Positions 12,629-44,080 of a DNA stretch of 64,000 bases are shown here, in pieces. Under the pieces are notes generated by a model, which did not search any database, was not told the DNA's origin, and worked only from the letters and a program-made list of their open reading frames with translations. The stretch spans positions 41,654 to 105,653 of the forward strand of contig CAYJTP010000001.1 in the NCBI GenBank assembly GCA_964373175.1, given 5' to 3'. The stretch comes from an uncultured Planctomycetales bacterium. Its GTDB lineage: Bacteria; Omnitrophota; Gorgyraeia; Aquiviventales; Aquiviventaceae. Both the position numbers and the translations under genes were made by a program. Position 1 is the stretch's first letter; every line of letters begins with the position of its first letter.

Positions 12629-12639
12629 GCGTGCGAGAA

Positions 12640-15927: not shown

Positions 15928-16124
15928 GACATGAATTCGTAAAAATGGTTCTCGTGCATCTGGAAGGCGTCGAACAGGTCCCTGCCACACTGCTGCGTGG
16001 CGCCCATCCCGCCCACGAACGGTGCACGCTCCAGGATGACGACGGCCTGCTCCCCTTCAAGCAAATCGCGGGCCGCCGCCAGGCCGCAGGAACCCGCCCC
16101 CCGGATGACCACAGGCTTATTCAT
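15924..16124 (-). pseudogene. 66-aa N-terminal fragment of an FAD-dependent oxidoreductase (probable gene remnant)
   Basis: MNKPVVIRGAGSCGLAAARDLLEGEQAVVILERAPFVGGMGATQQ has a GxGxxG fold and a 'VGG' motif like CDS 12640..14082, but terminates after 66 aa. It overlaps the next genes at both ends. Confidence 0.4.
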
Positions 16125-19397: not shown

Positions 19398-19398
19398 C

Positions 19399-20679: not shown

Positions 20680-20681
20680 CC

Positions 20682-21611: not shown

Positions 21612-21613
21612 GC

Positions 21614-22510: not shown

Positions 22511-22530
22511 GAACGCGCTTCTCCTTTTTT

Positions 22531-26036: not shown

Positions 26037-27487
26037 GTCTCAGTGCGCGCTGGGACCAGGGTGACTGACCGACCATGCAAGGGGATCACATAGTCGCGCC
26101 GCGCTCGAGCCAACTGCACCTCGACCCTCCTCCGGAAGTTGGCTCCTGCCTCGTTCAGTTCACCAACAATGGCGTCGCTCACCTGGCGCACGGTCTGATC
26201 ATCAAAGTATTTGTCCGTGGTTTCCCATTTCCCATCGGGAACGATCCGCCATCGATGGAACGACCAATCTCGATGTACGCCGAGTTGCATCCGTACCCGT
26301 GCCAGGACGTTCGAGGAACGCGTCGACCTGGGCCACTGCACACCATAGGCCAATGCTTTGCATCGCTGCAGTCGAACCCTCTGACCGTCTCGGCCGTTGA
26401 GCGATGCCAAGATGCACGCGGCGACTCGGTCATGAGCACGACCATCGACCCGATAGAACCAATCTTGAATCACGTCGGTGAGGCGCTGTCGAATGTGCGT
26501 GGGAACCTCAAAGCCACCTCGCAAGATCTCCCTCAGGTTCCCCTTCAGCTCCTCCTCTGAACCACACGGAATGCTGACCGCCTCGACCGAGGGGATCTTC
26601 ACCGCATCAGGCATCCATGCTGGCGACAGGGTTGGCACACCGACCATGCCGGCTTCCACCCCTGTGGTACAGTTCTTCTGAATGAGGGCTTTGGACCGGA
26701 GGATCCAACCTTCCACCGTTCCTGACTTCACTAAGTGCAAGTTCGGCAGAGGCTCCAGCAGTTCCTGATACCTGTCAGTGCGTTCAAATGGATGAGGTCG
26801 ATAGACAAACGTCGCCGTGGGGAATTCCCGGGCCAGGCCGTTCGACAACGCGGTCAAGCCTCTCATCAACTGCCGCTCGCGCTGCTGAACGCCCAACAGT
26901 TCCTGCTGATCCTGCCCAAACCACTTGACGGTTGCCGCGACAACGCTTTCCGGAGTGAGCGCGATCGGGTTGGCAAGCGGAAAGTTTCCATTGATGAGCA
27001 CCAGGGGCTGTCCGTATCGCTCGACATACCCGGACGCTTCCAGAGCTGCCCGACGCCATGGCTCCACATAGAAATCCGATCGGGGCGTCCCGGTGAGCCT
27101 GACCTGTCGTGACGAATACCTGCCGCTGCGAAGGACGTAGTCGGCCAACAGCAGCCCCCAGCTACAGAAAAACTCCGCCTGGTCTCGCAACGTCTGGTCG
27201 TCACCCATCGCCTCGGCATACATCTCGATGCTCGGGAGCACCCCTCCCTCTTTGTCCAAGACACCAAACGGAATGCCCGCTGACACGAGGGCCCGGACAA
27301 AGGGTTCGTTCGTTTTATGCATCTGATTCACCAGCACAAAGTCTGGGGCCAAGGCGGGGATTTCGCTCCATCGCAGGTTGTATGGGACGAGATGTGACAC
27401 GATCCCTTCTTGGCACAGCCGATGGGCCACCAACACTGCGCTGGGGATGTCCCGGTAGGGACTATCCACGATTAACGCGACCCGCAT
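26033..27487 (-). CDS. surface-carbohydrate biosynthesis protein, putative GT-B-fold (CMP-sugar-dependent?) transferase
   Basis: 484 aa, soluble. Same tentative family as 19399..20679 (paired hydrophobic beta-alpha segments, TGVEAGMVGVPTL). Assignment is tentative. Confidence 0.5.
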   Translation of the reverse strand: MRVALIVDSPYRDIPSAVLVAHRLCQEGIVSHLVPYNLRWSEIPALAPDFVLVNQMHKTNEPFVRALVSAGIPFGVLDKEGGVLPSIEMYAEAMGDDQTLRDQAEFFCSWGLLLADYVLRSGRYSSRQVRLTGTPRSDFYVEPWRRAALEASGYVERYGQPLVLINGNFPLANPIALTPESVVAATVKWFGQDQQELLGVQQRERQLMRGLTALSNGLAREFPTATFVYRPHPFERTDRYQELLEPLPNLHLVKSGTVEGWILRSKALIQKNCTTGVEAGMVGVPTLSPAWMPDAVKIPSVEAVSIPCGSEEELKGNLREILRGGFEVPTHIRQRLTDVIQDWFYRVDGRAHDRVAACILASLNGRDGQRVRLQRCKALAYGVQWPRSTRSSNVLARVRMQLGVHRDWSFHRWRIVPDGKWETTDKYFDDQTVRQVSDAIVGELNEAGANFRRRVEVQLARARRDYVIPLHGRSVTLVPARTET

Positions 27488-29010
27488 CCTCGGAATCCTT
27501 CCTCGGCCACCCGCAGGGCTCCTCGTCCGTCGACCAGCTGCTGTCCTGTCGAGGACATGTGGTCCTGTAATTGTTCATCGTCTCGCAAGCGGTTCACCAA
27601 ACGCGACACACGGGACAGCAGCCTTGGATCCCCTGCCCGGCCGGCGAACTGAACGGCTCCGAGACCAGCCAGGGCCTTCAGTTGTGCTCGTTGATTCTCG
27701 GCCACCTCAATAGCGATCGTTGGACATCCGACACAGGCCAGCTCATAGAGCGATTGCCCTCCCGCGGTAATCGCCACATCGGCCTGCACCATGTAGTCAA
27801 CCAGTTGCGTGGGGCTCTCCACGACACACACGGGACGCCTGAGTCGCTTGACCAGCGATCTGATCCGTTCTGGGTTTTTGAAAAACGGCCCAAGGATCGC
27901 GGTCACGCTGAACTCGCCTTTTAATTCCTCTAAGAGACCCAGCAACCCTGGCATCAGGTGATGGGGATCCGAACCACCCCCGAGCATCACCAACACCTCC
28001 TGCACTCTTGGGCGTGGTCTCCGTCTGGGAGGACTCCAAAATTCCGGACGAAGCAGGGCGTACGCTGGACCCAACAGGAACCGCGTGTCTCCCGATGAGG
28101 AACGGTAGGACAGGTTGCGCGCATGGGCACCGGGGCTGACGACCAGCTGACAGGGAAACGGAAAACGGCCCAGATCGTCAATGGCCATGACGAACAAGCC
28201 GGCCGCTCGCAAACGAAGGAGGTACTCTGCGTCCACATGGTAGGAATCCACCACGACCCCTTCGCACCGACACCGGGCGGAGATCGCCAGCGTGTGTAAC
28301 AGGTCGGACGGTCCACCTCGTTCGATACCATTCATGCGCTCACTCTGAAAACCAAGGCCGGACAGGTGCCTCTCCACACCAGGGTCCCCATCGGACAGGA
28401 AGCAGGAACTGAGCCCCTTTTTGAATGCGAAGGCCTTTGCCAACGCACAGCAGCGCTGGAAATGGCCCAGCCCGCTCTTCGCGCTCGCGTCCACACGGAA
28501 CAGCATCTGTCGTGGTTCCTGTTGGCGATCCCGGTACACGAACTCCAGCACCTCCCCTTCAGCAGATCGCCGCGTGAGAGCCAACACGAACCCAACCCGC
28601 TCAAATGCCTTTCGAGAGGCGTCGTTACCCGCTTTGACCAGCGCCACAACCCGCTCGATCCGATCCCACTTCAGTGCCAACTGGCATACGCGGCGGATGG
28701 CGCTCACCCCATACCCCTGTCCTCGTTCGGCAGAATCCACGCTGAGGTGAATGAAGACGTCAGGAATCTTTGCCTCCAGCCGAACATACCCGATGGGGGT
28801 CTTTGATTCATTGAGGATGACGAACAGCGTCACCGTGGGATCGCGCAGGACCCGGTGGTACCAGTTCTTGTGGAGCGGATACTCAATGGGTGTCATGTCG
28901 AAGGAGGCCCGGCGCGTCTCCGGTTCGTTCCTCCACTCCCAGATACGCCGGCAATCCTCCGGTGTCCCTCGCCGCAGTGTGACCGTCGGCGATCCCGCCA
29001 CCTCACGCAA
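27472..29010 (-). CDS. bifunctional PseH-like GNAT N-acetyltransferase / PseG-like UDP-2,4-diacetamido-2,4,6-trideoxyhexose hydrolase (MurG-like GT-B)
   Basis: N-terminal GNAT (TPEDCRRIWEWRNEPE..., VALVKAGNDASRKAFERVGF). C-terminal MurG/PseG-like domain (LVMLGGGSDPHH..., ITAGGQSLYELACVGCPTIAI). The track ORF starts at GTG 29058; TTG at 29010 is preceded by AGGAGG with a 6-nt spacer and sits 2 nt after the upstream stop. Confidence 0.7.
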   Translation of the reverse strand: MREVAGSPTVTLRRGTPEDCRRIWEWRNEPETRRASFDMTPIEYPLHKNWYHRVLRDPTVTLFVILNESKTPIGYVRLEAKIPDVFIHLSVDSAERGQGYGVSAIRRVCQLALKWDRIERVVALVKAGNDASRKAFERVGFVLALTRRSAEGEVLEFVYRDRQQEPRQMLFRVDASAKSGLGHFQRCCALAKAFAFKKGLSSCFLSDGDPGVERHLSGLGFQSERMNGIERGGPSDLLHTLAISARCRCEGVVVDSYHVDAEYLLRLRAAGLFVMAIDDLGRFPFPCQLVVSPGAHARNLSYRSSSGDTRFLLGPAYALLRPEFWSPPRRRPRPRVQEVLVMLGGGSDPHHLMPGLLGLLEELKGEFSVTAILGPFFKNPERIRSLVKRLRRPVCVVESPTQLVDYMVQADVAITAGGQSLYELACVGCPTIAIEVAENQRAQLKALAGLGAVQFAGRAGDPRLLSRVSRLVNRLRDDEQLQDHMSSTGQQLVDGRGALRVAEEGFRGCGSR

Positions 29011-30061
29011 CGTCACCCTCCTGCAGCGCTGATTCAGCCGCAATGGCTCGCCGCACACGCCTGCCGAGCAGCTCGTCGAAGCGCTCCGGCTTCACTCCTC
29101 CATCCAAATTCCCACACCGCAGGACCGCGATGTTGTCGCGGGTCAAGACCTCTCCCGAGATGAGCTGCCGAACCGCGAAGATACTCCGGCGCGCAAACTT
29201 CCTCAACTCCGCCTCAACGGCCTGGACCGTCTTTTCACCGGATCCCAAGGCTCGTTCTCCTTCGCGGATCTTCTGAACCATCTGGTGCAATTCATGGGGC
29301 TCAAGCGCAAACGAGTGATCCGGCCCAGGCAGTGCGTTGCTTAAGGTGAAATGCTTTTCGATGAGGTCCGCCCCTAAGGCGACGGCGGACAAGGGCCCAA
29401 CAACCGGATCGCGCGAGTGGTCTGAGAATCCCACGGGGACACCAAATGCGGCTTTCATGCTCGCAACCGCCCGGAGATTCAGAGACTCCAGGGGTGCAGG
29501 ATACGCCGCCGTACAGTGCATCAAGATCAGGTCGCCGTTTCCGGTCCGTCGGAATTCCTCAACCGTGTTGGACACCTCCTCCAAGTTCGCGGCGCCCGTG
29601 GAGATGATCACCGGCTTGCCCTTCTTCGCTATATGTCGCACGAGGGGAATGTGGGTCATCTCATAGGAGGCAATCTTGAAGGCGACCACGTAGGGGTGAA
29701 GACGATCTGCCGTCTCTTCGTCGAACACAGAAGCAAGGAAGAGGATGTCTTTTTCCCGACAGTAGGCCGACAGCTCCGGCAACCATTCATAGGGCATCTG
29801 CATCTCGGCGATGATGTCATAGATGGAACGAGGATCCTTCAGGTACTCGCTGTGGCCCGCCCCTTTTGGATAGAGCGTCTCCGCACGGAACAGTTGGAAC
29901 TTCACGGCATCGGCGTTGGCAGAGGCCGCCACATCGATGAGTCGCTTGGCCTGCTGAAGACTGCCGTTATGGTTGCTGCCCGCCTCCGCGATGATGCAAC
30001 AAGGCTGCCCGTCGCCGATCCATCGACTGCCAATCCGCACCTTGGAAACCCCTGGTGTCAT
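29003..30061 (-). CDS. pseI: pseudaminic acid synthase / N-acetylneuraminate synthase family with C-terminal SAF domain (PseI-like)
   Basis: 352 aa. CCIIAEAGSNHNGSLQQAKRLID...DAVKFQ...GFSDHS plus a C-terminal SAF domain. Adjacent to the PseH/G fusion. Confidence 0.8.
   Translation of the reverse strand: MTPGVSKVRIGSRWIGDGQPCCIIAEAGSNHNGSLQQAKRLIDVAASANADAVKFQLFRAETLYPKGAGHSEYLKDPRSIYDIIAEMQMPYEWLPELSAYCREKDILFLASVFDEETADRLHPYVVAFKIASYEMTHIPLVRHIAKKGKPVIISTGAANLEEVSNTVEEFRRTGNGDLILMHCTAAYPAPLESLNLRAVASMKAAFGVPVGFSDHSRDPVVGPLSAVALGADLIEKHFTLSNALPGPDHSFALEPHELHQMVQKIREGERALGSGEKTVQAVEAELRKFARRSIFAVRQLISGEVLTRDNIAVLRCGNLDGGVKPERFDELLGRRVRRAIAAESALQEGDVA
29017..29022 (-). promoter_or_regulatory. 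Shine-Dalgarno AGGAGG for the TTG start of the PseH/PseG fusion
   Basis: Perfect AGGAGG 6 nt upstream of the in-frame TTG at 29010. Confidence 0.4.
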
Positions 30062-30095
30062 TGTGCTGCCTGCATGCCTGCTGCCAAATCGCCTC

Positions 30096-32093
30096 TTACG
30101 GTTCCCGGAATACCGGCTGCACCGGTTCTCCTTGCAACCGACTTCTCACATCGTCCGATCGAATAGCCGTGGCCAGAACCTGCAGGGCTTCCCGATACGC
30201 GCGAAGCGTCTGCTCGACATCCGCGTCGCTGTGGCTGTACGAGATATTCTGGCCTCCAGAAAACAGGATTCCCCTCTTGACGCATTCTTGTTGGAACAAA
30301 CTTTTGAGCGCCAGAGACTGTCTTTCCCTGTCGTCTGTGAAGACGATCACGGTGCGAGGCGGCAGACCGATGCACTCGGTGGTACGCTCTAAGCCCAACG
30401 CTCGTGCCAGCGCGTTGTATCCGTCCTTCAGCTTCCGTCCCTGGTTCCACAGGTGCTGGATCACGTCTTTCTCCCGAATCTCCGTAATCGTCGCCATGGC
30501 CGCAGCAAGGGACAGCGTCTCTCCTCCAAAGGTACATGAGAAGAAGACCTCGTCGAACAGCTTCATGATCTCTGCCCGACCAACCACAGCCGCCAGAGGA
30601 TAGCCGTTGGCCATGGCTTTACCAAGGCAGGTCAGATCTGGGATAACCCCAAGGAGCTCTTGCGCCCCACCTACGGCCAGACGAAACCCAGTGATCACCT
30701 CGTCAAAGATCAACACGGCACCCTCGCGGTGGGCCAGCTCCCGGACCTGTTGCAAGAAGCCCTCGAGGGGCTCCACCACGCCGACGGGCTCCATGATGAC
30801 GGCTGCCACTTGGCCAGGATGCTCGGCGAAGATGCGCTTCAAGCTGTCAAGGTTGTTGTACTCAAACGGGATCGTGAGTTCCCGGACCACCTTTGGTACA
30901 CCGTTGTTCCGACTTGTCGTGCCGATGTACCAATCCTGCCAGCCGTGGTACCCGCAGCAGGTGATCAGATCGCGTCCGGTGTAGGCACGCGCCACCCTCA
31001 CCGCTCCGGCCGTCGCGTCGGATCCGTTCTTGGCAAAGCGGACCATCTGCGCAGACGGAATGATGCGGGTGAGCATCTCGGCCAGCTCCACTTCCAAGGG
31101 ATGAGGCAAGGTGAAGGTCGTCCCGTCTTCGAGCTGACGCAGCACCGCCTTCGTGACCGACGGATAGTTGTGACCGAGAATCACTGGCCCCAGGGCCATC
31201 GGGTAATCAATGTACTCGTTCCCGTCGACGTCCCACACACGACACCCCTGGCCACGCTTCAAGAACACAGGAGATGCTCCTTGGATAAACTGCGTGGGGC
31301 CTTTGCTGAACGTCTGCGAACACGAGGGGATCAAAACGCTCGCCTTTTTCTTGAGTTCAAGGGAACGAGCGAGCCTGCGACGGTTGATCTGGGCAAGAGC
31401 GGGTTCTCGTTCCAGAAGCTGAAGGATCTCTTTGAAACCAAAGGAGAGCCCGTTCGAACTGAGTCTCGCATAGACCGAGCGGACAAACTCCAGATCAGAC
31501 GGTTCATCCACTGCCCAATGGAGATTCAGCGGGGAGAGATCGACCTCATGTTCGACATTGCGGGTGCGAAAGCGACCCGACGTGCGGAGGTACGGTGTGA
31601 CATGCTCCCGTTCCGCAGATGACCGGGCCTCCTGGTGGGCCCTCTCTAGGGCCTGAAAACTGAAGACCTCCACATCGAGACCATCGGGATAAGTATAGCG
31701 GAGCGTGTTGGTGACATAGTCGTAGCCTCCCTCACGGTACGCAGCCACAACCCGATCCAACACCTCTGGGTCGATCAGCGGACAATCCGCTGTGATGCGG
31801 GCGACCACATCGGCCTTAACCTGCTTGGCCACCTCGTACGTGCGACCCAGGACATCGTGTTCGCTACCCCGAAGACATCGAATCCCGTCCTTCCGGCAGA
31901 ACTCGACAATGGCGTCATCGATGGGCTCTGTCGAGGTCGCGACCACCACCTCGTCCACCTGCCGAGCTTGGCGGACCTGACCGACCACCCGCTTGAGCAG
32001 TGGCATTCCAGCGACGTCCATGAGGACCTTCCCGGGTAACCGGGTTGAGCCCATTCGCGCCTGGATCACGGCCACCACCCGCTCCTCCTTCAT
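30096..32093 (-). CDS. fusion of SpsF/NeuA-like cytidylyltransferase and class-III (glutamate-1-semialdehyde aminomutase-like) PLP aminotransferase
   Basis: 665 aa. N-terminus VAVIQARMGSTRLPGKVL (SpsF/CMP-sugar synthetase-like). C-terminus HNYPSV..., FDEVITGFRLAVGGAQ..., LTCLGKAMANGYPL (class III aminotransferase with PLP lysine). Confidence 0.75.
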   Translation of the reverse strand: MKEERVVAVIQARMGSTRLPGKVLMDVAGMPLLKRVVGQVRQARQVDEVVVATSTEPIDDAIVEFCRKDGIRCLRGSEHDVLGRTYEVAKQVKADVVARITADCPLIDPEVLDRVVAAYREGGYDYVTNTLRYTYPDGLDVEVFSFQALERAHQEARSSAEREHVTPYLRTSGRFRTRNVEHEVDLSPLNLHWAVDEPSDLEFVRSVYARLSSNGLSFGFKEILQLLEREPALAQINRRRLARSLELKKKASVLIPSCSQTFSKGPTQFIQGASPVFLKRGQGCRVWDVDGNEYIDYPMALGPVILGHNYPSVTKAVLRQLEDGTTFTLPHPLEVELAEMLTRIIPSAQMVRFAKNGSDATAGAVRVARAYTGRDLITCCGYHGWQDWYIGTTSRNNGVPKVVRELTIPFEYNNLDSLKRIFAEHPGQVAAVIMEPVGVVEPLEGFLQQVRELAHREGAVLIFDEVITGFRLAVGGAQELLGVIPDLTCLGKAMANGYPLAAVVGRAEIMKLFDEVFFSCTFGGETLSLAAAMATITEIREKDVIQHLWNQGRKLKDGYNALARALGLERTTECIGLPPRTVIVFTDDRERQSLALKSLFQQECVKRGILFSGGQNISYSHSDADVEQTLRAYREALQVLATAIRSDDVRSRLQGEPVQPVFREP

Positions 32094-33445: not shown

Positions 33446-33450
33446 GAGGG

Positions 33451-35063: not shown

Positions 35064-35069
35064 GAGACG

Positions 35070-35900
35070 CTAGGAGACCCGAACGTTGAGTCCCGCCTGT
35101 TTCATGTAGGCCCTGGCTTTAATGACGCTCTGGTCCGTAAAGTGGAAAATGGAGGCCGCCGCAACGGCGGAGGCTCCTCCGAGCGTCACCGCTTCCACGA
35201 GATGCTGGAGCGTTCCTGCCCCACCAGCCACAATGACCGGGCAGTCCACGGCATCGGCGACGGCTCGAATCAGCCTTAGGTCATAGCCCAATCCGGTTCC
35301 GTCCCGATCGATGGACGTCAAAAAGATCTCCCCTGCCCCTGCCTCGAGCGCAGTCCGAGTCCAGCAGACCGGTTCGAGACCTGTCGGCTCCTTGCCCCCC
35401 TGTATGAACACCTCGTAACGATCCGGCACAACCTGCTTCGCATCGATGGCCACGACCACACTTTGGCTGCCGAAACGGACCGCGCAGTCCCCGATCAGCT
35501 TGGGGTTTAAGACGGCCGCCGTGTTGATGGCAACTTTATCCGCTCCTGCCTCAAGCAACCTTCGAGCATCCTCAACCGTTCTCACGCCGCCGCCAACGGT
35601 CAGCGGCATGAAGCAGGCCTCGGCCGCCTTCGCAACGACTTCGAGAAGGGTGGAACGATTTTCCTGGGTCGCTGTAATGTCCAGGAATACCAACTCATCG
35701 GCCCCTTGCGCGTCGTAGACCTTTGCAGCGGTGACTGGGTGCCCCACGTCCCGAAAATTATCGAACCGGATGCCCTTGACGCAGCGACCGTTCGACACGA
35801 GCAATGTCGGAATGAGGCGAATCTTCAGCGGGCACACGCACTCCGCCGTCGACCCTTCGACGCGGGCCACGGCCTCCCCGGCCCGCCTGGAGAACAGCAT
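35070..35900 (-). CDS. HisF-like imidazole-glycerol-phosphate-synthase cyclase subunit homolog (WbuY-like)
   Basis: [22 protein letters not shown]...DELVFLDI...AINTAAV matches HisF. Start uncertain: ATG at 35900 chosen, GTG at 35840 or ATG at 35996 possible. The track ORF (to 36086) carries a Pro/Arg-rich extension. Confidence 0.7.
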
Positions 35901-36004
35901 GCCGGGGCGGGCTGGCCGTGGGCCCTTGCTCAGGATGTCACCCCGAATGGGCGAAGAACAGGTGCCACCCCGCATTGGCGGGGTGGGGCTCCACATCTGG
36001 AGTG

Positions 36005-36646
36005 CTAAGTCGGCCATGTGACAAAGTTGCGCAGAAGTTTCAGACCCGCCATCTGGCTTTTCTCTGGATGGAATTGCACAGCCCACAGATTCCGGTCATG
36101 GAGGGCGACAGCGACCGGTCCACCATAGTTGCAGGTTGCGATCACGAACTCCGGGCGGTCACTCACAAAGTGATAACTGTGTGCGAAGTACAGGACCGGT
36201 TCCGGGCCTAAACCCTGAAAGAGCCAACTCTCGGTTGTGGGGTAGACCGTATTCCATCCCATATGCGGGACACGCAACTGTCGGCTGTTATTCAACGGTC
36301 TAACCCGGCCGGGGAGCCAGCGGAGCCCCTCATGAAAGCCGTGTTCGTATCCCTCATGGGCAAGGATCTGCATGCCCAGGCAGATTCCAAGAAACGGTTT
36401 TCCCTTTTGTCGAACCTCCTCATCCAGGACATCAATCCACCCCCCAGACTTCAAGTTCTTCATGCATTCCCCAAACGCCCCGACCCCGGGTAGCACAATC
36501 CGATCGGCTGCTTCGAGATCCTCAGGCCGGTCCATCACGGTGACCTGCGCACCCACGGTCTCCAAGGCCTTTGCGACAGAACGGAGGTTCCCGGTCCCGG
36601 CATTAATGACCGCCACACTGACCCTGGAAGATGAGCGGGGATTCAT
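36005..36646 (-). CDS. HisH-like class-I glutamine amidotransferase subunit homolog (WbuX-like)
   Basis: [14 protein letters not shown], catalytic GICLGMQ (Cys), and HFHPEKS (His/Glu). Start at the ATG overlapping the upstream TGA (ATGA). Confidence 0.8.
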
Positions 36647-37803
36647 TCGCGCGGCTGAGTCCGATCCCAAAGCGGTTGGTCCCAAAGAGCCGTTCCCCGC
36701 TCCGCGTTGGATGGATCGTGCTGGTAGGGGGCGACCGCATGGCCTAAGGCGATCTTCATGAACTCCTCTTCCGTAATCCCGACGGCCTTTAAGAAAAGAT
36801 CGAGGCTGGCCGGACGTTTGCCGTCGTACGCCGCCTCAAGCCGGAGCGCTTCCTCCCGTGAGGTCATCTTCCCTTCCCGCAGGTCTTTACTCACCAGATG
36901 GGCCGTCCGTCCAAACCCGCGCTTGATGAACTTCAGATAATCCCGCACCCCCTGCATGAAGCACTCGATCTTTTCATACCCGTATTCCGGCGGGACCCCC
37001 TCCACCTGTTCTTCCTTCCATCCAAGCTCTCGTTTGATGATCTCAGCTTGCGCCTTGGTCTCCCAGGGGATGTAGCTCCCCAAACAGATGGAGCGGTAAT
37101 TCAGCGCTCGTAATTCCTCGATCGGCGGGTACGCAAAGGGCTCCAGGTCCCGCATCGTGATCCCTTTCCCCAGCATCCCCAGCATATCCTCGGCGGTGAT
37201 TCCCAGGTTGACGAACCGGTTAAAGCGACGCTCGTCTACTTCTTCCTCTTCCTGATACGTGTAGTAGCTCGTATACTCAGCGCTGGGCTCTCCCCAGATG
37301 ACCAAGGGGACTTTGAACTTCACCGCAATGTGCATCGGATAGGCGAAGATCCCGGTATGGCAGTGCCAGCAGAAGTCCCCCTTGCGGATCAGCGCCTCCA
37401 GCATGAGCCGTCGGACAACCTGCCAGTTTGGACGAAACTTCAAGTAGTCGACCCCCAACGTCTTCATGGTCCGCTCAGTATTCGCCAGCACGGTTGGACG
37501 CATAAAGCCGTGATCGAAGGTGACCACCAGCGGCTTGAGATGGTAGCGCACCACCACGGTGTAGAGGGTAAACGTGCTGTCCTTGCCACCAGAAAACGGC
37601 ACAAGACAGTCATAAGGGTGCTTGTCGCGGTAGTGATCGAGGATCGCGATCAGCTCCTTCTCCTTCTGCTGCCAATCGATGTGCTTCTGTTTGTACTCAA
37701 TCTGGCGGCAGACGTTGCAAACGCCCTCCCCATCAAACACGATCGTCTCCTGGGTTTCCGGCAGCACACAACGGCTGCACCGTTTGAGCTCGGTCATCGG
37801 CAT
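36643..37803 (-). CDS. N-acetyl sugar amidotransferase, PP-loop ATP pyrophosphatase family (PseA/WbuZ-like)
   Basis: 386 aa. N-terminal Cys4 (CSRCVLP...CNVC), then PP-loop LVPFSGGKDST. This family pairs with HisH/HisF-like proteins for acetamidino-sugar formation. Confidence 0.8.
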   Translation of the reverse strand: MPMTELKRCSRCVLPETQETIVFDGEGVCNVCRQIEYKQKHIDWQQKEKELIAILDHYRDKHPYDCLVPFSGGKDSTFTLYTVVVRYHLKPLVVTFDHGFMRPTVLANTERTMKTLGVDYLKFRPNWQVVRRLMLEALIRKGDFCWHCHTGIFAYPMHIAVKFKVPLVIWGEPSAEYTSYYTYQEEEEVDERRFNRFVNLGITAEDMLGMLGKGITMRDLEPFAYPPIEELRALNYRSICLGSYIPWETKAQAEIIKRELGWKEEQVEGVPPEYGYEKIECFMQGVRDYLKFIKRGFGRTAHLVSKDLREGKMTSREEALRLEAAYDGKRPASLDLFLKAVGITEEEFMKIALGHAVAPYQHDPSNAERGTALWDQPLWDRTQPRE

Positions 37804-38834
37804 ACCTCAGATGGAGCCACGCTGGGAACAGCTCCGGCTGCGCAGGCCACTTCCCGGCCAAGACGGGCTGACGCGTGGGCCGCGACGACCACTTCAAGGA
37901 CCCGAAGGGCGTCCTCTCCAGACACGCGGGGGACGGCTTCTCCCTTGAGACAGCTCAGGAATTCCTTGAGCTCCTCCAGATACAGCACGTTTGGATCGAG
38001 AGGGGTCGGGATCGTCTCCCAGCAGCGCGTGTCGGCCCGGTACCATCGCAGGCCCTCCAGATAGTCCCAGATGAGCGTGCCCTCTGTGCCGATGACTTTG
38101 CAGGTCCGCGTGTAGGCCCGTTGGGCGCAGTCCAGGTGGAGGCTCGCGCGCCAGCCATTGCTCAACGACAGCCAGAGCAGCGCAAGATCCTCCGCATCCA
38201 TTTGTAAATCGCTCAGATGTGCGGTCAGCGCGGTGACCGTTTCCACCTCGCCCGCAAGCCAGCGCACATAATCAATTTCATGGGAGGCGTCGAGCAGTAT
38301 GCCCCCTCCCAATGCCGCGTGAGCCGTATAACTTTCCTCGTAGTGTTGAGCGGGACGCCAGTCAGGAAGGTACTGGCCGAACTCGGCCTGGATGAACAAC
38401 ACGCGACCCACCCGGCCTTCATCGACCCAAGCCTTGAGGCGCTGGAGACCAGGATGGAACCGGAGCTGATACCCGACCTGAATCACCCGAGAACTCAGGC
38501 GGGCCATGGCGCACAGATCGGCCACGCCCTCGAGCGTGTGAGAGATCGGCTTTTCAATGAACACGTGAGCCCCATGCTGGATGGCTTGCCGAGCAGGCTC
38601 CACGTGAAGAGCAGGAGGCGTGCAAATCAACACCCCTTGGGGCAGACGATCGAACCCCTCCGCGATGCTGCAACAAGGCACGACGCCCAACTCACGAACC
38701 ACCCCGTTGAGCCGATCCGGCAGAGGATCATAGGCAAACAATTCCTTGATCCCTAAGGTCCGGAGGTTGAGAAGATGTCGCCGGCCGATGGAGCCGCATC
38801 CTAAGACGAAGAGTCGTGGGGGGCTATTGACCAT
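37794..38834 (-). CDS. Gfo/Idh/MocA-family oxidoreductase
   Basis: RLFVLGCGSIGRRHL N-terminus, EKPIS motif. Start ATG at 38834 (alternative at 38840). The track ORF is longer. Confidence 0.8.
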   Translation of the reverse strand: MVNSPPRLFVLGCGSIGRRHLLNLRTLGIKELFAYDPLPDRLNGVVRELGVVPCCSIAEGFDRLPQGVLICTPPALHVEPARQAIQHGAHVFIEKPISHTLEGVADLCAMARLSSRVIQVGYQLRFHPGLQRLKAWVDEGRVGRVLFIQAEFGQYLPDWRPAQHYEESYTAHAALGGGILLDASHEIDYVRWLAGEVETVTALTAHLSDLQMDAEDLALLWLSLSNGWRASLHLDCAQRAYTRTCKVIGTEGTLIWDYLEGLRWYRADTRCWETIPTPLDPNVLYLEELKEFLSCLKGEAVPRVSGEDALRVLEVVVAAHASARLGREVACAAGAVPSVAPSEVCR

Positions 38835-40023
38835 ACGCATCCAGCACCTTGGTGACCGCTTCGATGCAATCTTCCACGTCCGCATCAGTCATGCTGTGAA
38901 ACAGCGGCAAGCTGATCAGGCGACGATAGGCCTCCTCGGCCACGGGGTATTCCCCTCCTCGGTAACCAAACCGGTGCCGATAGTACGGGTGCAGATGGAC
39001 CGGGATGTAGTGGACATTGACCCCCAGGCCTTCGGCCCGCAGCGCTTTGAAGATCTCCGCCCTCTCCACGTGCAGCTTCGACAAGTCCAGTTGAACAGGG
39101 TACAGATGCCACGCCGGTGTGGCATCGGGTCGCACCACCGGTGGCATCACCCCTCCCAGGTCCTTGAAGACCCTGGTATAGCGCATCGCAATCTGCTGAC
39201 GGCGCTCCAGATTTCGATCAAGCCGCTTGAGTTGGGATAACCCCAGCGCACATCCGATATCTGAGAGGCGATAGTTATACCCCAACGCGACCATCTCATA
39301 GTACCAGTCACCGCCCGCTTCACGCTCGTGGACGTCGTGCTCGATCCCCTGGTTGCGGAAGATGCGCAGTTGACGGGCAAATTCCGCGTTGTCCGTCGTC
39401 ACCATGCCCCCCTCTCCCGTCGTGATATGCTTCACGGGATGAAAACTGAAGACGGTCATATGGCTGACCGACCCGACCCGGCGACCTCGAAGCTCTGCGC
39501 CCAGCGCATGACAGGCATCCTCAATCACGACCAGTCCCTGTCGTTCGGCCAACGCGACGAGCGCATCGAGATCGGCCGGATGCCCCGCGTAGTCCACCGG
39601 GAGGATGGCTTTTGTCCTGGCTGTGACCGCCTGCGCGACACGGTTCGGATCAAGGTTCAACGTATCGGGGCAGACGTCGCAGAACACGGGCAACGCCCCT
39701 TGGTACAACAGGGCATTGGCCGTCGCGCAGAACGTCAGCGGGGTGGTCACCCCTTCATCCCCAGGCCCCAACCCAGCCGCAAAGACCGCTCCATGAAGCG
39801 CGGCAGTGCCGGAAGAGAAGGCCACAGCGTAACGACTCCCGACACGAGCCGCGAGGGCCGCTTCGAACTGCTCGACGACCGGACCGGTCGTCAACCAGTC
39901 CGACCGCAGGACTTCCAGGACCCCCTGGAGATCCTCCTCGAGCACCTCATGGTGCCCATACGGCAACCGTCTCTGGCGGACCGGTTGTCCCCCGTCGACC
40001 GCCAAGGTAGGTAGCGCCTTCAT
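38824..40023 (-). CDS. pseC: DegT-family aminotransferase (PseC-like UDP-4-amino-4,6-dideoxy-N-acetyl-beta-L-altrosamine transaminase)
   Basis: VLEEDLQGVLEVLRSDWLTTGP..., and FSFHPVKHITTGEGG (PLP lysine). Immediately downstream of the PseB-like gene. ATG at 40023; the preceding GTG at 40026 is used by the track. Confidence 0.8.
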   Translation of the reverse strand: MKALPTLAVDGGQPVRQRRLPYGHHEVLEEDLQGVLEVLRSDWLTTGPVVEQFEAALAARVGSRYAVAFSSGTAALHGAVFAAGLGPGDEGVTTPLTFCATANALLYQGALPVFCDVCPDTLNLDPNRVAQAVTARTKAILPVDYAGHPADLDALVALAERQGLVVIEDACHALGAELRGRRVGSVSHMTVFSFHPVKHITTGEGGMVTTDNAEFARQLRIFRNQGIEHDVHEREAGGDWYYEMVALGYNYRLSDIGCALGLSQLKRLDRNLERRQQIAMRYTRVFKDLGGVMPPVVRPDATPAWHLYPVQLDLSKLHVERAEIFKALRAEGLGVNVHYIPVHLHPYYRHRFGYRGGEYPVAEEAYRRLISLPLFHSMTDADVEDCIEAVTKVLDAYGQ

Positions 40024-40033
40024 CACCGGGGAC

Positions 40034-41014
40034 TCACCTCGAAAACTGCCCGATCATCTGATGCAACCGCTCCCCGCTCAGCCAATCCGTATTGGTGTTG
40101 CTAGCGTAGCGGGTGCCGGGCTTCATCGGCCGGCCTCCCGACCAGCTCTGTCCGTCCCACCAAGGATGAGCGGGCTGGATGATGTACATATCATCAAATT
40201 CGAGGGCCTGGGCGACTTCGTCCTCGGAAATGAGCACCTCATGGAGTTTCTCTCCTGGCCGGATGCCAATGAGCTCCACTTGAGCGTCCGGTGCAATGGC
40301 TTTCGCTAGGTCCATGATCGCCATGCTGGGAATTTTTGGCACAAACACCTCCCCGCCCTGCATCTGCTGGACACAGCGAATCACAAAGTGTACCCCTTGC
40401 TCGAGCGTGATCCAAAAGCGTGTCATCCGAGAGTCGGTAATCGGCAGCCGGCCGTTCTCGCGTTTGCCCAGGAACAGGGGGATCACGCTGCCCCGGCTGC
40501 CCACGACATTGCCATAGCGCACACAACTAAAACGCGGGCCCTCCGCACCGGAGTACGCATTGCTGTGAATACAGAGCTTCTCCGCACACAGTTTTGTCGC
40601 GCCATACAGGTTGACCGGATTGACCGCTTTATCAGAGCTGACCAGCATGACCCTCTTGACCCCCTGATCGATCGCGGCCTCCACGACGTTCCGCGAGCCC
40701 ATCACATTGGTCATGATCGCTTCGATGGGATTGTACTCACAGGTTGGGATCTGCTTTAAGGCTGCGGCATGCACGACGATCTCGACACCGTTGAAGGCCC
40801 GTTCCAGTCGTTCCCGGTCCCTGACATCCCCGATGAAATACCGAAGACAGGGATGGTCAAAGCCGGATTGCCGCATCTCATGCTGTTTGAGCTCATCCCG
40901 ACTGAAGACGATGAGTTTCTTGGGCTGATAATCCCGCAGGACGACTTCTACGAATTTCCGCCCAAACGATCCAGTGCCACCTGTGACGAGAATCGTTCGA
41001 CCGTTAAGCTCCAT
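40034..41014 (-). CDS. pseB: UDP-N-acetylglucosamine 4,6-dehydratase (inverting), PseB/FlaA1/CapD-like
   Basis: NGRTILVTGGTGSFGRKFVE..., YGATKLCAEKL. Short SDR-like protein of the Polysacc_synt_2 type. ATG at 41014 gives the typical 7-residue lead-in before ILVTGG; ATG at 41035 is also possible. Confidence 0.85.
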   Translation of the reverse strand: MELNGRTILVTGGTGSFGRKFVEVVLRDYQPKKLIVFSRDELKQHEMRQSGFDHPCLRYFIGDVRDRERLERAFNGVEIVVHAAALKQIPTCEYNPIEAIMTNVMGSRNVVEAAIDQGVKRVMLVSSDKAVNPVNLYGATKLCAEKLCIHSNAYSGAEGPRFSCVRYGNVVGSRGSVIPLFLGKRENGRLPITDSRMTRFWITLEQGVHFVIRCVQQMQGGEVFVPKIPSMAIMDLAKAIAPDAQVELIGIRPGEKLHEVLISEDEVAQALEFDDMYIIQPAHPWWDGQSWSGGRPMKPGTRYASNTNTDWLSGERLHQMIGQFSR

Positions 41015-42323: not shown

Positions 42324-42326
42324 GGC

Positions 42327-44078: not shown

Positions 44079-44080
44079 CC

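What the first reader, a model, noticed from the sequence alone, without database searches (positions are those of the whole stretch)
27472..41014. Pseudaminic-acid-type nonulosonic acid module with acetamidino, N-formyl and extra N-acyl remodelling genes
PseB-like (40034..41014), PseC-like, a PseH-PseG fusion and a PseI-like synthase with SAF domain form a near-complete Pse pathway. Interleaved are a PP-loop N-acetyl sugar amidotransferase with HisH/HisF-like partners (acetamidino formation), a formyltransferase, a RimL-like GNAT, an M28/DUF4910 aminopeptidase-like protein (possible de-N-acetylase), a Gfo/Idh/MocA oxidoreductase and a cytidylyltransferase-aminotransferase fusion. Together these predict a heavily N-modified (Am, Fo, Ac) nonulosonic acid.
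Basis: partly seen in the sequence, partly recalled or inferred. Interest (0 to 1): 0.65.

Follow-up and report, generated by a model that had tools for sequence, protein, structure and literature searches.

The report
Pseudaminic-type sugar-acid operon with N-remodelling cassette
Twelve back-to-back genes encode the synthesis, activation and nitrogen decoration of a pseudaminic-acid-type nine-carbon sugar acid for a cell-surface polymer; the unusual part is a widespread, uncharacterised enzyme trio at its core (an oxidoreductase plus a fused activating enzyme and aminotransferase).

Summary

**What passes the curated profiles:** PseB, PseC, PseG and the WbuX amidotransferase pass NCBIfam cut-offs. 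The synthase, the two GNATs and the cytidylyltransferase domain do not pass the PseI, PseH or PseF cut-offs, so they are family-level assignments only.

**What the comparison with 80 related loci shows:** These loci come from about 20 lineages. The Gfo/Idh/MocA oxidoreductase and the cytidylyltransferase/class-III aminotransferase fusion are not add-ons. They belong to a conserved core: PseB, PseC, oxidoreductase, SpsF-type cytidylyltransferase + aminotransferase, GNAT/PseG, NeuB.
- The oxidoreductase is fused to the other two domains in 21 loci.
- It is replaced by an aldo-keto reductase in 12 loci.
- No separate PseF occurs in these loci.

**The true add-on:** It is a six-gene cassette (WbuX, HisH-like, HisF-like, formyltransferase, GNAT, DUF4910/M28) inserted into this core. 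The same six genes recur in the same order in a Syntrophales genome.

**Best reading:** A CMP-activated, Pse-type nonulosonic acid carrying acetamidino, formyl and acetyl groups, destined for an ABC-transporter-exported polymer.

**Open point:** I found no paper characterising the oxidoreductase/aminotransferase pair. My best guess is that it adds a third amino group, but this is inferred, not shown.

**Verdict:** A new variant of a known kind, of moderate interest.

The parts
40034..41014 (-). PseB: UDP-GlcNAc 4,6-dehydratase (inverting). The ORF could also start at 41035.
   Evidence: TIGR03589 scores 489.3 bits vs cut-off 407.75; LegB model scores 56.6 vs 475. Polysacc_synt_2 E = 1e-100. 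Found next to the fusion in 65 of 80 related loci at about 65% identity.
38824..40026 (-). PseC: UDP-4-keto-6-deoxy-L-AltNAc 4-aminotransferase (DegT family).
   Evidence: TIGR03588 scores 466.4 vs 423.5; LegC model scores 235.8 vs 420. Present in 69 of 80 related loci at about 61% identity.
37794..38840 (-). Gfo/Idh/MocA NAD(P) oxidoreductase (Gfo1), the partner of the cytidylyltransferase/aminotransferase fusion. The start is probably the ATG at 38840 or 38834.
   Evidence: Three Gfo/Idh/MocA Pfam domains. Orthologues (38-48% identity) lie directly upstream of the fusion, or are fused to its N-terminus in proteins of about 1028 aa in 21 loci. An aldo-keto reductase takes this position in 12 loci. 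Best PDB matches are weak: 3Q2I/3Q2K at 74 bits, also 6O15 and 6Z3B.
36643..37803 (-). WbuX-type PP-loop N-acetyl-sugar amidotransferase (forms an acetamidino group).
   Evidence: TIGR03573 scores 349.8 vs 203.2. SGGKDS PP-loop motif visible in the translation. 59-63% identical homologues in 8 related loci.
36005..36646 (-). HisH-like glutaminase subunit (WbuY role). The ATG at 36646 overlaps the WbuX stop by 4 nt.
   Evidence: TIGR01855 scores 221.5 vs 105.4. The Cys (GICLGMQ) and His-Pro-Glu (FHPEKS) triad is visible. Follows WbuX in 6 related loci.
35070..35840 (-). HisF-like barrel (WbuZ role: ammonia conduit). Start uncertain, between 35840 and 35900.
   Evidence: WbuZ TIGR03572 scores 291.2 vs 299.7; hisF scores 303 vs 294.6. 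The alignment to solved HisF shows Leu where the cyclase Asp of 'CLDV' sits. Seven homologues in related loci have Gln or Leu at that position.
34029..35063 (-). Formyltransferase with N- and C-terminal domains (Fmt/ArnA type).
   Evidence: Formyl_trans_N E = 8e-10 and Formyl_trans_C E = 8e-8. Best PDB matches are Met-tRNA formyltransferase and ArnA. The motif NVHPIPLPRYRG ... DVGD is visible. Co-occurs with DUF4910 in 4 of the 6 loci that carry this type.
33451..34032 (-). Stand-alone GNAT N-acyltransferase (Acetyltransf_3, RimL-like).
   Evidence: PF13302 E = 4e-29. PseH model scores 31.5 vs 93.1. Present in 25-27 of 80 loci, and in 7 of the 8 loci that carry WbuX.
32090..33445 (-). DUF4910/DUF2172/M28-like protein with a C-terminal winged helix (Cj1295-type candidate de-N-acylase).
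   Evidence: PF16254 E = 5e-54, PF09940 E = 2e-19, PF04389 E = 1e-6. Full-length match to PDB 3K9T, E = 4e-43. PMC3068675 links this protein family to replacement of the 5-N-acetyl of Pse.
30096..32093 (-). Fusion of an SpsF-type cytidylyltransferase (aa 1-~235) with a GSA-aminomutase-like class-III PLP aminotransferase (aa ~240-665).
   Evidence: CTP_transf_3 E = 7e-36 and Aminotran_3 E = 5e-54. N-terminal domain: PseF 35.8 vs 205.7. C-terminal domain: PRK06209 462.8 vs 486, HemL 286.8 vs 527. PDB: 6OEW for the N-domain, GSA aminomutases and C-6' aminotransferases for the C-domain. All 120 best database hits share the fused architecture at 62-72% identity. PLP lysine (GKAMANG) and nucleotide-binding Arg/Lys are invariant.
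29003..30061 (-). NeuB-family nonulosonic acid synthase with SAF domain.
   Evidence: NeuB E = 4e-83 and SAF E = 1e-5. NeuB_NnaB 344.8 vs 399.65; PseI 302.9 vs 340.25. Best PDB matches: SpsE 1VLI at 298 bits, PseI 8H2C at 205 bits. 65-69% identical to the synthase in the Dehalococcoidia and Planctomycetia loci.
27472..29010 (-). GNAT (N-terminal, PseH role) fused to the PseG UDP-sugar hydrolase (C-terminal).
   Evidence: PseG TIGR03590 scores 165.4 vs 153.55 for aa 165-512. The GNAT domain scores PseH 28.6 vs 93.1. Present in 61 of 80 related loci.
26033..27487 (-). Candidate nonulosonic-acid transferase.
   Evidence: TIGR04396 scores 244.3 vs 125; BFO_1060 glycosyltransferase domain scores 112.9 vs 200. 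BFO_1060/Tanf_01245 is the genetically supported Pse-derivative transferase of Tannerella (PMC5420450). An RPHP motif is shared with the second such gene at 19399-20706. No PDB relative by sequence.
41004..43214 (-). Context: Wzt (with Wzt_C carbohydrate-binding domain) and Wzm ABC exporter, directly upstream in the same transcriptional direction.
   Evidence: ABC_tran plus Wzt_C, and ABC2_membrane. Wzt/TagH-type NCBIfam hits.

Best explanation
The interval is one co-directional operon segment. It makes a CMP-activated, Pse-type 5,7-diamino nonulosonic acid, re-decorates its nitrogens and hands it to a glycosyltransferase.

**Steps supported by equivalog-level profiles**
- PseB converts UDP-GlcNAc to the 4-keto-6-deoxy-L-sugar.
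- PseC aminates C4.
- PseG removes UDP.

**Steps supported at family level only**
- The GNAT fused to PseG acylates N4.
- The NeuB/SAF enzyme condenses the hexose with PEP.
- The SpsF-type domain of the fusion makes the CMP-sugar. It is the only cytidylyltransferase in the related loci.

**Inferred: the oxidoreductase/aminotransferase pair**
Gfo1 and the class-III aminotransferase domain act as an oxidise-then-transaminate pair on the nine-carbon acid or its CMP ester. This would turn a free hydroxyl (C8, or C4) into a third amino group.

**Inferred: the inserted six-gene cassette**
- The DUF4910/M28 protein removes an N-acetyl group.
- The formyltransferase re-acylates the freed amine with formate.
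- The free GNAT acetylates another amine.
- WbuX, with the HisH-like glutaminase and a HisF-like barrel that lacks the cyclase Asp, converts an acetamido group to an acetamidino group.

**Fate of the product**
The TIGR04396-type transferase probably installs the product in a polymer. That polymer would be exported by the adjacent Wzm/Wzt ABC transporter.
For: **Equivalog hits above cut-off:** PseB, PseC, PseG, WbuX.

**Operon packing:** Tight spacing with no excess of terminator-like sites.

**Conserved gene order:** PseB, PseC, (GNAT), Gfo or AKR, cytidylyltransferase+aminotransferase, GNAT/PseG, NeuB in 80 loci from many phyla.
- 48 loci have the complete core.
- In 58 loci the oxidoreductase is adjacent or fused.
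- The triple fusions have the domain order Gfo, cytidylyltransferase, aminotransferase (also P0072 and P0100).
- The same three genes occur unfused in the cultured haloarchaeon Halorussus aquaticus.
- Only 1 of 80 loci holds a second, PseF-like cytidylyltransferase.

**Aminotransferase relatives:** The nearest characterised relatives act on aldehydes or ketones rather than alpha-amino acids: GSA aminomutase, GntE, aminopentol aminotransferase and the aminoglycoside C-6' aminotransferases.

**Cassette mobility:** WbuX, HisH, HisF, Fmt, GNAT, DUF4910 recur in the same order in Syntrophales locus L005, but placed after NeuB.
- Window-type Fmt co-occurs with DUF4910 in 4 of 6 loci.
- WbuX co-occurs with the free GNAT in 7 of 8 loci.

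**HisF-like gene:** The Asp-to-Leu/Gln change is seen here and in 7 homologues.

**Literature:**
- Cj1295-family protein and replacement of the 5-N-acetyl of Pse (PMC3068675).
- A deacetylase plus a formyltransferase in the Kuenenia CMP-NulO cluster (SugarBase preprint).
- Unfused GNAT, PseG, GSA-aminomutase, cytidylyltransferase, acetyltransferase, HisF, HisH in the L. pneumophila Sg6/12 O-antigen locus (PMC3694923).
Against: - PseI, PseH and PseF equivalog cut-offs are not met.
- The synthase is closest to SpsE, which belongs to a legionaminic pathway that also uses a PseG-like enzyme. The final configuration is therefore not fixed.
- No paper I could find describes a triamino nonulosonic acid.
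- An aldo-keto reductase replaces Gfo in 12 loci. That family usually reduces carbonyls, which fits oxidation-amination less well.
- Thirty of the 48 complete loci have no or only one recognisable class of N-acyltransferase. A third amine would then stay free, or go unmodified by anything I recognised.
- Stand-alone relatives of the aminotransferase (about 45% identity) sit in rhizobial megaplasmid glycan loci without PseB, PseC or NeuB. The family is therefore not tied to nonulosonic acids.
- Which nitrogen receives which group cannot be read from sequence.
Confidence: 0.7

Rival explanations
1. The product is an ordinary 5,7-diamino nonulosonic acid. The oxidoreductase and class-III PLP domain do something other than add an amine. 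Options include epimerising a hydroxyl- or amine-bearing carbon (the class-III fold includes racemases and the GenB-type 6'-epimerase), swapping an amine for a hydroxyl, or tailoring an N-acyl side chain.
For: - An aldo-keto reductase can replace Gfo.
- A Vibrio Pse cluster has an SpsF-like cytidylyltransferase fused to an aldo-keto reductase and followed by a dehydrogenase, with no class-III enzyme reported (PMC7371886).
- Class-III epimerases and racemases appear among the PDB relatives.
- No triamino nonulosonic acid was found in the literature searched.
- Many complete loci carry a single acyltransferase class.
Against: - A PLP epimerase would not need an obligatory, often fused, NAD(P) oxidoreductase.
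- The pairing of a dehydrogenase with an aminotransferase is the standard route from hydroxyl to amine (WbpB/WbpE, KdnB/KdnA and aminoglycoside 6'-amination, cited from established knowledge).
- This window carries three acyl-transfer genes plus an amidotransferase, more than two nitrogens need.
Confidence: 0.35
2. The sugar is not pseudaminic acid in configuration. It would be a legionaminic-type or other stereoisomer, because the later enzymes are of the SpsE/SpsF/SpsG type used by B. subtilis for legionaminic acid.
For: - The synthase matches SpsE best (298 bits, against 205 for PseI).
- The cytidylyltransferase domain is SpsF-like rather than PseF-like (JGI names).
- B. subtilis uses SpsG, SpsE and SpsF for Leg (PMC7439481).
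Against: - PseB (inverting) and PseC pass their equivalog cut-offs, while the LegB and LegC models score far below theirs.
- No NeuC/LegG-type hydrolysing 2-epimerase domain appeared in any ORF scanned across the window.
Confidence: 0.2
3. The WbuX/HisH/HisF trio amidates a different sugar of the same polymer. The candidate is a 2,3-diacetamido-2,3-dideoxy-uronic acid made by the WbpA/B/D/E-like genes at 53364-62322, as WbpG does in P. aeruginosa and AglXYZ in Methanococcus.
For: - The window carries two UDP-sugar dehydrogenases, two further Gfo genes, an LbH acetyltransferase and a second DegT.
- An AglZ/HisF2 model also matches the HisF-like gene (255 bits vs 310).
Against: - The trio lies inside the nonulosonic-acid operon here.
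- It recurs inside or directly after that operon in 8 related loci from different phyla, usually with the free GNAT.
- Acetamidino Pse and Leg are well known, for example C. jejuni Pse5Am7Ac (PMC3068675) and the Legionella O-antigen locus.
Confidence: 0.15
4. The HisH/HisF-like and class-III 'HemL-like' genes are housekeeping histidine and haem genes that merely sit in the cluster.
For: The general hisH and hisF equivalog models are passed. The class-III domain is routinely named glutamate-1-semialdehyde aminomutase.
Against: - The HisF-like protein lacks the cyclase Asp.
- The HemL model scores 287 against a cut-off of 527.
- The class-III domain is covalently fused to a cytidylyltransferase.
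- All these genes are co-conserved with PseB, PseC and NeuB.
Confidence: 0.03

Closest known systems
Campylobacter jejuni / Helicobacter pylori CMP-pseudaminic acid pathway (PseB, C, H, G, I, F)
   Same: PseB, PseC and PseG equivalogs are present. So are a GNAT, a NeuB-family synthase and a CTP_transf_3 activating enzyme. The order of chemistry is the same.
   Different: - No PseF-type enzyme: activation is by an SpsF-type domain fused to a class-III aminotransferase.
- A Gfo/Idh/MocA enzyme is obligatory.
- The GNAT is fused to PseG.
- The synthase and GNATs fall below the PseI and PseH cut-offs.
Bacillus subtilis sps legionaminic acid pathway (SpsM, C, D, G, E, F; PMC7439481)
   Same: The synthase is closest to SpsE (1VLI). 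The cytidylyltransferase is SpsF-like. A PseG-like hydrolase is used.
   Different: B. subtilis starts from a retaining dehydratase (SpsM) and makes Leg. Here the first two enzymes are PseB and PseC equivalogs. B. subtilis has no class-III aminotransferase or Gfo partner.
Legionella pneumophila serogroup 6/12 O-antigen locus (PMC3694923)
   Same: It has adjacent GNAT, PseG, GSA-aminomutase-like, cytidylyltransferase, acetyltransferase, HisF and HisH genes in a Wzm/Wzt-exported O-antigen locus.
   Different: The genes are unfused there. I could not fetch that locus to check for a Gfo/AKR partner or for PseB and PseC. The function of those genes is not established there either.
WbuX/WbuY/WbuZ, C. 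jejuni PseA, P. aeruginosa WbpG, Methanococcus AglXYZ (acetamidino formation)
   Same: A WbuX-family PP-loop enzyme above its cut-off, partnered by a HisH-like glutaminase and a HisF-like barrel that lacks the cyclase Asp.
   Different: The substrate is presumed to be a (CMP-)nonulosonic acid rather than FucNAc or ManNAc3NAcA. This was not tested.
C. jejuni Cj1295 (aminopeptidase-like polysaccharide biosynthesis protein, PIRSF015244)
   Same: Same Pfam architecture (DUF2172/DUF4910/M28-like), with a full-length match to the solved family member 3K9T. In C. jejuni it sits next to PseB/PseC and is required for replacing the 5-N-acetyl of Pse.
   Different: The replacement group here would be formyl (or acetyl) rather than di-O-methylglyceroyl. 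The amidase activity is hypothetical in both cases.
Dehydrogenase/aminotransferase couples that aminate sugars (WbpB/WbpE, GnnA/GnnB, KdnB/KdnA for Kdo8N, aminoglycoside 6'-amination)
   Same: An NAD(P) oxidoreductase is obligatorily paired with a PLP aminotransferase. The best PDB matches of Gfo1 (3Q2I and 3Q2K) are, from my memory, WlbA UDP-GlcNAcA 3-dehydrogenases.
   Different: The aminotransferase is of the class-III (GSA-aminomutase-like) type, not DegT. It is fused to a CMP-forming enzyme. The substrate and position are unknown.
Vibrio sp. B9-25K2 Pse cluster with an SpsF-like/aldo-keto reductase fusion (PMC7371886)
   Same: An SpsF-type cytidylyltransferase after PseC replaces the missing NeuA/PseF and is physically joined to an oxidoreductase.
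   Different: No class-III aminotransferase is reported there. A separate dehydrogenase follows instead.

Membership tests
Pseudaminic acid pathway | PseB: inverting UDP-GlcNAc 4,6-dehydratase (TIGR03589 equivalog) | tested here: met
   489.3 bits vs cut-off 407.75.
Pseudaminic acid pathway | PseC aminotransferase (TIGR03588 equivalog) | tested here: met
   466.4 vs 423.5.
Pseudaminic acid pathway | PseH N-acetyltransferase (TIGR03585 equivalog) | tested here: not met
   The GNAT fused to PseG scores 25-29 bits and the free GNAT 31.5 bits, vs cut-off 93.1. GNAT fold only.
Pseudaminic acid pathway | PseG UDP-sugar hydrolase (TIGR03590 equivalog) | tested here: met
   163.7-165.4 vs 153.55, a marginal pass.
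Pseudaminic acid pathway | PseI synthase (TIGR03586 equivalog) | tested here: not met
   302.9 vs 340.25. NeuB_NnaB scores higher at 344.8 vs 399.65. Best PDB matches: SpsE 298 bits, PseI 205 bits.
Pseudaminic acid pathway | PseF cytidylyltransferase (TIGR03584 equivalog) | tested here: not met
   The fused N-domain scores 35.8 vs 205.7. It is a CTP_transf_3 member of the SpsF type.
Pseudaminic acid pathway | Product has the L-glycero-L-manno configuration | not testable with these tools
   Needs NMR or standards.
Legionaminic acid pathway | LegB and LegC equivalogs, and a NeuC/LegG-type hydrolysing 2-epimerase | tested here: not met
   LegB 56.6 vs 475; LegC 235.8 vs 420. No Epimerase_2-type hit in any ORF scanned.
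WbuX/Y/Z glycosyl amidation system | WbuX-family PP-loop amidotransferase (TIGR03573) | tested here: met
   349.8 vs 203.2. SGGKDS motif present.
WbuX/Y/Z glycosyl amidation system | HisH-like glutaminase and HisF-like partner encoded next to WbuX | tested here: met
   HisH scores 221.5 vs 105.4 and its triad is visible. Gene order WbuX, HisH, HisF here and in 6 related loci.
WbuX/Y/Z glycosyl amidation system | WbuZ equivalog (TIGR03572), as distinct from true HisF | tested here: inconclusive
   291.2 vs 299.7, just below the cut-off, while the hisF model is passed (303 vs 294.6). However, the cyclase Asp is replaced by Leu, as in 7 homologues.
Sugar N-formyltransferases (Fmt/ArnA fold) | Formyl_trans_N catalytic core with the Asn-His...Asp motif, plus Formyl_trans_C | tested here: met
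   Both Pfam domains are above their gathering scores. NVH...D motif seen by inspection. The substrate was not tested, and no close solved sugar formyltransferase was found.
Cj1295 / PIRSF015244 aminopeptidase-like glycan proteins | DUF2172 + DUF4910/M28-like architecture and homology to a family member | tested here: met
   Pfam hits. 3K9T at E = 4e-43 over aa 4-416. I did not run a direct alignment to Cj1295.
Glutamate-1-semialdehyde 2,1-aminomutase (HemL) | HemL equivalog (TIGR00713) | tested here: not met
   286.8 vs 527.3. The paralogue model PRK06209 scores 462.8 vs 486.
BFO_1060 / Tanf_01245 nonulosonic-acid transferases | BFO_1060 glycosyltransferase domain (NF046086) | tested here: inconclusive
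   112.9 vs 200 for 26033-27487, but the broader TIGR04396 model is passed (244.3 vs 125).

The most novel reading that the evidence does not exclude
The conserved trio is a Gfo (or aldo-keto) oxidoreductase, an SpsF-type cytidylyltransferase and a class-III aminotransferase. It occurs next to PseB, PseC and NeuB in bacteria and archaea of many phyla. On this reading it converts a Pse-type sugar into a so-far undescribed triamino nonulosonic acid (8-amino or 4-amino). This window's cassette would then dress three nitrogens with formyl, acetyl and acetamidino groups.
Probability: 0.3. Interest if true: 0.8.

Novelty: new variant of a known kind. Interest (0 to 1): 0.55.

Why it matters
Nonulosonic acids shape how microbial surfaces carry charge, are recognised by phages and immune systems, and assemble flagella, S-layers and O-antigens. 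Their chemistry outside pathogens is largely unmapped.

This window shows two things.
- A common, unstudied version of the Pse pathway exists in uncultured Acidobacteriota, Dehalococcoidia, Planctomycetota, Omnitrophota and others. It also occurs in a few cultured strains, such as Halorussus aquaticus. In it, the activating enzyme is welded to an aminotransferase and an oxidoreductase.
- A portable six-gene cassette appears to exchange N-acetyl for formyl and acetamidino groups.

If the trio adds a third amine, it defines a new sugar class and a set of enzymes useful for chemoenzymatic synthesis. If it does not, it still marks an unexplained, very widespread step in sialic-acid-like sugar biosynthesis. 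That step is directly testable with purified enzymes.

Tried and rejected
**Legionaminic pathway.** Considered because the synthase resembles SpsE. Kept only as a minor rival because the PseB and PseC equivalogs pass, LegB and LegC fail, and no NeuC-type enzyme is present.

**Gfo1 + PseC as a WbpB/WbpE-like 3-amination pair.** Rejected. The DegT is a PseC equivalog, and Gfo1 orthologues are fused to the cytidylyltransferase/aminotransferase in 21 loci. A 3-amino hexose would also block pyranose closure of the nine-carbon acid (chemical reasoning).

**Housekeeping HisH/HisF and HemL.** Rejected on the loss of the cyclase Asp, the failed HemL cut-off, and co-conservation with the sugar genes.

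**Test against a solved glycan.** I hoped S. fredii NGR234, whose K-antigen is a Pse polymer, would carry the aminotransferase in its rkp-3 region. The plasmid hit turned out to be a stand-alone homologue in a different glycan locus without PseB, PseC or NeuB. It gives no test, and it weakens any family-wide substrate inference.

**Literature.** Searches for a characterised cytidylyltransferase/class-III fusion, for DUF4910 and for triamino or 8-amino nonulosonic acids found nothing decisive.

**Source organism.** Exact-sequence look-ups gave only an unnamed metagenome contig.

**Not done.** I did not run structure prediction. A fold match to GSA aminomutase or to a GT-B fold would not have settled substrate or position.

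Full report
**1. What is in the sequence**

The whole 64-kb window is one minus-strand gene array of even GC content, about 0.58-0.62. Between 27472 and 41035 lie twelve ORFs. They overlap by 4-17 nt or are separated by 5-34 nt. The only longer spacer, about 105-165 nt, lies before the HisF-like gene. Promoter-like and terminator-like matches are no more frequent than in shuffled sequence. The interval therefore reads as part of one long operon.

In transcription order, Pfam and NCBIfam give the following:

| Gene | Result (bits vs curated cut-off) |
|---|---|
| PseB | TIGR03589, 489 vs 408 |
| PseC | TIGR03588, 466 vs 423.5 |
| Gfo/Idh/MocA oxidoreductase | three Pfam domains |
| WbuX N-acetyl-sugar amidotransferase | TIGR03573, 350 vs 203 |
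| HisH-like glutaminase | TIGR01855, 221 vs 105 |
| HisF-like barrel | hisF 303 vs 294.6; WbuZ 291 vs 299.7 |
| Formyltransferase | Formyl_trans_N and Formyl_trans_C |
| Free GNAT | Acetyltransf_3 |
| DUF4910/DUF2172/M28-like protein | with a winged helix |
| Cytidylyltransferase + aminotransferase | CTP_transf_3 fused to Aminotran_3 |
| Synthase | NeuB + SAF |
| GNAT fused to PseG | TIGR03590, 164-165 vs 153.6 |

**2. Where the Pse label is solid and where it is not**

Only PseB, PseC and PseG pass equivalog cut-offs.
- The synthase scores 303 against a PseI cut-off of 340, and scores higher on the NeuB_NnaB model (345 vs 400).
- Its best solved relative is B. subtilis SpsE (298 bits), ahead of PseI (205 bits).
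- The two GNATs score 25-31 bits against a PseH cut-off of 93.
- The cytidylyltransferase domain scores 36 against a PseF cut-off of 206.

In B. subtilis, SpsE, a PseG-like SpsG and SpsF act in a legionaminic acid pathway (PMC7439481). These later enzymes therefore do not fix the configuration.

The Pse assignment rests on three points.
- The inverting dehydratase PseB and the aminotransferase PseC pass their cut-offs.
- The LegB and LegC models score very low (57 vs 475 and 236 vs 420).
- No NeuC-type hydrolysing 2-epimerase appeared in any ORF I scanned across the window.

**3. The core is a widespread variant pathway**

The 665-aa fusion protein has thousands of relatives. The best 120 all share the CTP_transf_3 + Aminotran_3 architecture at 62-72% identity. 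They come from Nitrospiraceae, Thermodesulfobacteriota, Dehalococcoidia, Syntrophales, Bathyarchaeota and others. Two are further fused to Gfo/Idh/MocA domains.

I then scanned one genome per species, using patterns taken from the aminotransferase domain. The scan gave at least 585 relatives. The 80 best cover the whole fusion and come from about 20 class- or phylum-level lineages, including a Woesearchaeote.

I mapped every window protein onto these 80 loci.
- The recurring order is PseB, PseC, (free GNAT), oxidoreductase, cytidylyltransferase+aminotransferase, GNAT/PseG, NeuB.
- Counts out of 80: PseC 69, PseB 65, NeuB 70, GNAT/PseG 61.
- The oxidoreductase is a separate Gfo1 orthologue in about 35 loci, is fused N-terminally in 21 (domain order Gfo, CTP, AT), and is replaced by an aldo-keto reductase in 12.
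- 48 loci have the complete set.
- Only one locus has a second cytidylyltransferase.

The SpsF-type domain must therefore be the activating enzyme of this pathway.

The same three genes occur unfused, next to NeuB, DegT and SDR genes, on a plasmid of the cultured haloarchaeon Halorussus aquaticus.

In the window, Gfo1 and the fusion are separated by six genes. The fusions in other genomes still tie them together functionally.

**4. The accessory cassette**

WbuX, HisH, HisF, formyltransferase, free GNAT and DUF4910 are each present in only 5-27 of the 80 loci. In Syntrophales locus L005 the same six genes occur in the same order, with one extra ORF, but after NeuB rather than between Gfo1 and the fusion. 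They therefore behave as a portable unit.

Within it:
- WbuX co-occurs with the free GNAT in 7 of 8 loci.
- The window-type formyltransferase co-occurs with DUF4910 in 4 of 6 loci.
- Other loci carry different formyltransferases, sometimes together with a PIG-L-type deacetylase (AHPDDE motif read by eye).

This pairing of a deacylase with a formyltransferase parallels the Kuenenia CMP-nonulosonic acid cluster. There, free-amine and N-formyl sugars were observed (SugarBase preprint).

The DUF4910 protein matches the solved family member 3K9T over its full length (E = 4e-43). In C. jejuni, the family member Cj1295 is required for a Pse derivative whose 5-N-acetyl is replaced. Its authors proposed that it cleaves that amide (PMC3068675).

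The HisF-like protein is very close to true HisF. However, it has Leu where the catalytic Asp of 'CLDV' lies, and seven homologues in related loci have Gln or Leu there. That fits an ammonia-channel partner for WbuX rather than a histidine enzyme.

**5. How it most likely works**

*Shown at profile level:* UDP-GlcNAc goes to the 4-keto-6-deoxy-L-sugar (PseB), then to the 4-amino sugar (PseC). UDP is removed by PseG.

*Family level:* N-acylation by the GNAT fused to PseG, condensation with PEP by NeuB/SAF, and CMP activation by the SpsF-type domain.

*Inferred:* Gfo1 and the class-III domain form an oxidise-then-transaminate couple acting at the level of the nine-carbon acid or its CMP ester.

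Reasons for this inference:
- The oxidoreductase is obligatory and often covalently joined.
- The class-III domain's nearest characterised relatives transaminate aldehydes or ketones: GSA aminomutase, GntE, aminopentol aminotransferase and the aminoglycoside C-6' aminotransferases.
- The invariant PLP lysine and nucleotide-binding residues argue that both domains are active.
- At the hexose stage, the only free secondary hydroxyl (C3) becomes the ring oxygen of the nine-carbon acid. Amination there would prevent pyranose formation. This is chemical reasoning, not a tool result.
- After condensation, only the C4-OH and C8-OH are free.

C8 would give a methyl ketone, a typical class-III substrate. 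C4 oxidation of sialic acids by Gfo/Idh/MocA enzymes also has precedent: from memory, YjhC and NanOx correspond to PDB 6O15 and 6Z3B, which appear among the Gfo1 matches.

The window's three acyl-transfer genes plus an amidotransferase would suit three nitrogens.

I hold this step at roughly 0.3-0.4 for these reasons:
- No triamino nonulosonic acid turned up in the literature searched.
- Aldo-keto reductases usually reduce carbonyls.
- Many complete loci show only one acyltransferase class.
- Stand-alone relatives of the aminotransferase occur in rhizobial glycan loci without PseB, PseC or NeuB.

**6. Context**

Directly upstream are Wzm and Wzt, the latter with a Wzt_C domain. Directly downstream, overlapping the PseG stop, is a TIGR04396 protein with partial similarity to the BFO_1060/Tanf_01245 Pse-derivative transferase of Tannerella. 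Further downstream is a WbdD-like methyltransferase-kinase.

The sugar is thus probably built into an ABC-transporter-exported polymer, as is the polylegionaminic O-antigen of Legionella. The serogroup 6/12 locus of Legionella contains an unfused version of GNAT, PseG, class-III aminotransferase, cytidylyltransferase, acetyltransferase, HisF and HisH (PMC3694923).

A Vibrio Pse cluster has an SpsF-like enzyme fused to an aldo-keto reductase, proposed to replace NeuA (PMC7371886). Leptospira has an adjacent cytidylyltransferase, an aminotransferase of unassigned role and a second synthase (PMC3438082).

I found no study that assigns a function to the oxidoreductase/aminotransferase pair.

**7. 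Verdict**

The individual modifications (acetamidino, formyl, acetyl) are known chemistry for Pse and Leg, so the cluster is a new variant of a known kind.

The added value is twofold.
- The Gfo gene and the fusion define a widespread, uncharacterised branch of the pathway.
- The remaining six genes form a mobile remodelling cassette.

The source organism is an unnamed metagenomic bacterium.

Noticed in passing
window 19399-27487: A second ulosonic-acid module follows directly. It comprises a xylose-isomerase-like TIM barrel (25203-26036), a CTP_transf_3 closer to PseF than the fused domain (24469-25254; 137 vs 206 bits), a Gfo gene, an SDR, a NeuB without SAF (21614-22510; 39% identical to NeuB1) and a methyltransferase. 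It is bracketed by two TIGR04396/BFO_1060-like putative transferases. Four of these genes (NeuB2, the cytidylyltransferase, Gfo2 and the SDR) also sit just upstream of the Pse-like core in Omnitrophota locus L011.
   Followed up: partly
window 45837-53517: A possible third and fourth CMP-sugar branch. It holds a small CTP_transf_3, a Kdo-transferase-like GT30, a CTP_transf_3 fused to an O-methyltransferase, and a NeuB-C-terminal/SAF-like region fused to a GT2. It also holds a shikimate-dehydrogenase-like gene and a DAHP/KDO8P-synthase-like gene (PRK08673, 353 vs 335 bits). Dehalococcoidia loci L006 and L009 likewise have an SpsF-like gene plus a DAHP-synthase-like gene upstream of PseB. This may encode a CMP-activated 7- or 8-carbon ulosonic acid.
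   Followed up: no
window 17310-19397 and 41004-43214: A methyltransferase + APH-kinase protein resembles the WbdD chain terminator. Together with Wzt carrying a Wzt_C domain, it points to an ABC-transporter-dependent polymer with a capped end.
   Followed up: no
window 53364-62322: A WbpA/B/D/E-like set: two Gfo genes, an LbH acetyltransferase, a DegT, two epimerase/dehydratase genes and two UDP-sugar dehydrogenases. It suggests a 2,3-diacetamido-uronic acid in the same glycan, which would be an alternative target for the WbuX amidotransferase.
   Followed up: partly
L022, L034, L073 and other Acidobacteriota loci, between GNAT-PseG and NeuB: Many acidobacterial versions of the operon insert one or two short formyltransferase-like genes and a PIG-L-type deacetylase (AHPDDE motif) at this position. 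This looks like a different solution to the same deacylate-then-formylate idea.
   Followed up: partly
L082 (S. fredii NGR234 pNGR234b, locus coordinates 11920-23166): A stand-alone class-III aminotransferase (45% identical to the fusion's C-domain) lies about 8 kb from a DUF4910 homologue (28%). The glycan locus has GT2 genes but no PseB, PseC or NeuB. The two families therefore also associate outside nonulosonic-acid clusters.
   Followed up: partly
window 43215-45019, 5396-6868, 62428-63975: Several ORFs of 287-515 aa inside the cluster have no Pfam or NCBIfam match at all.
   Followed up: no
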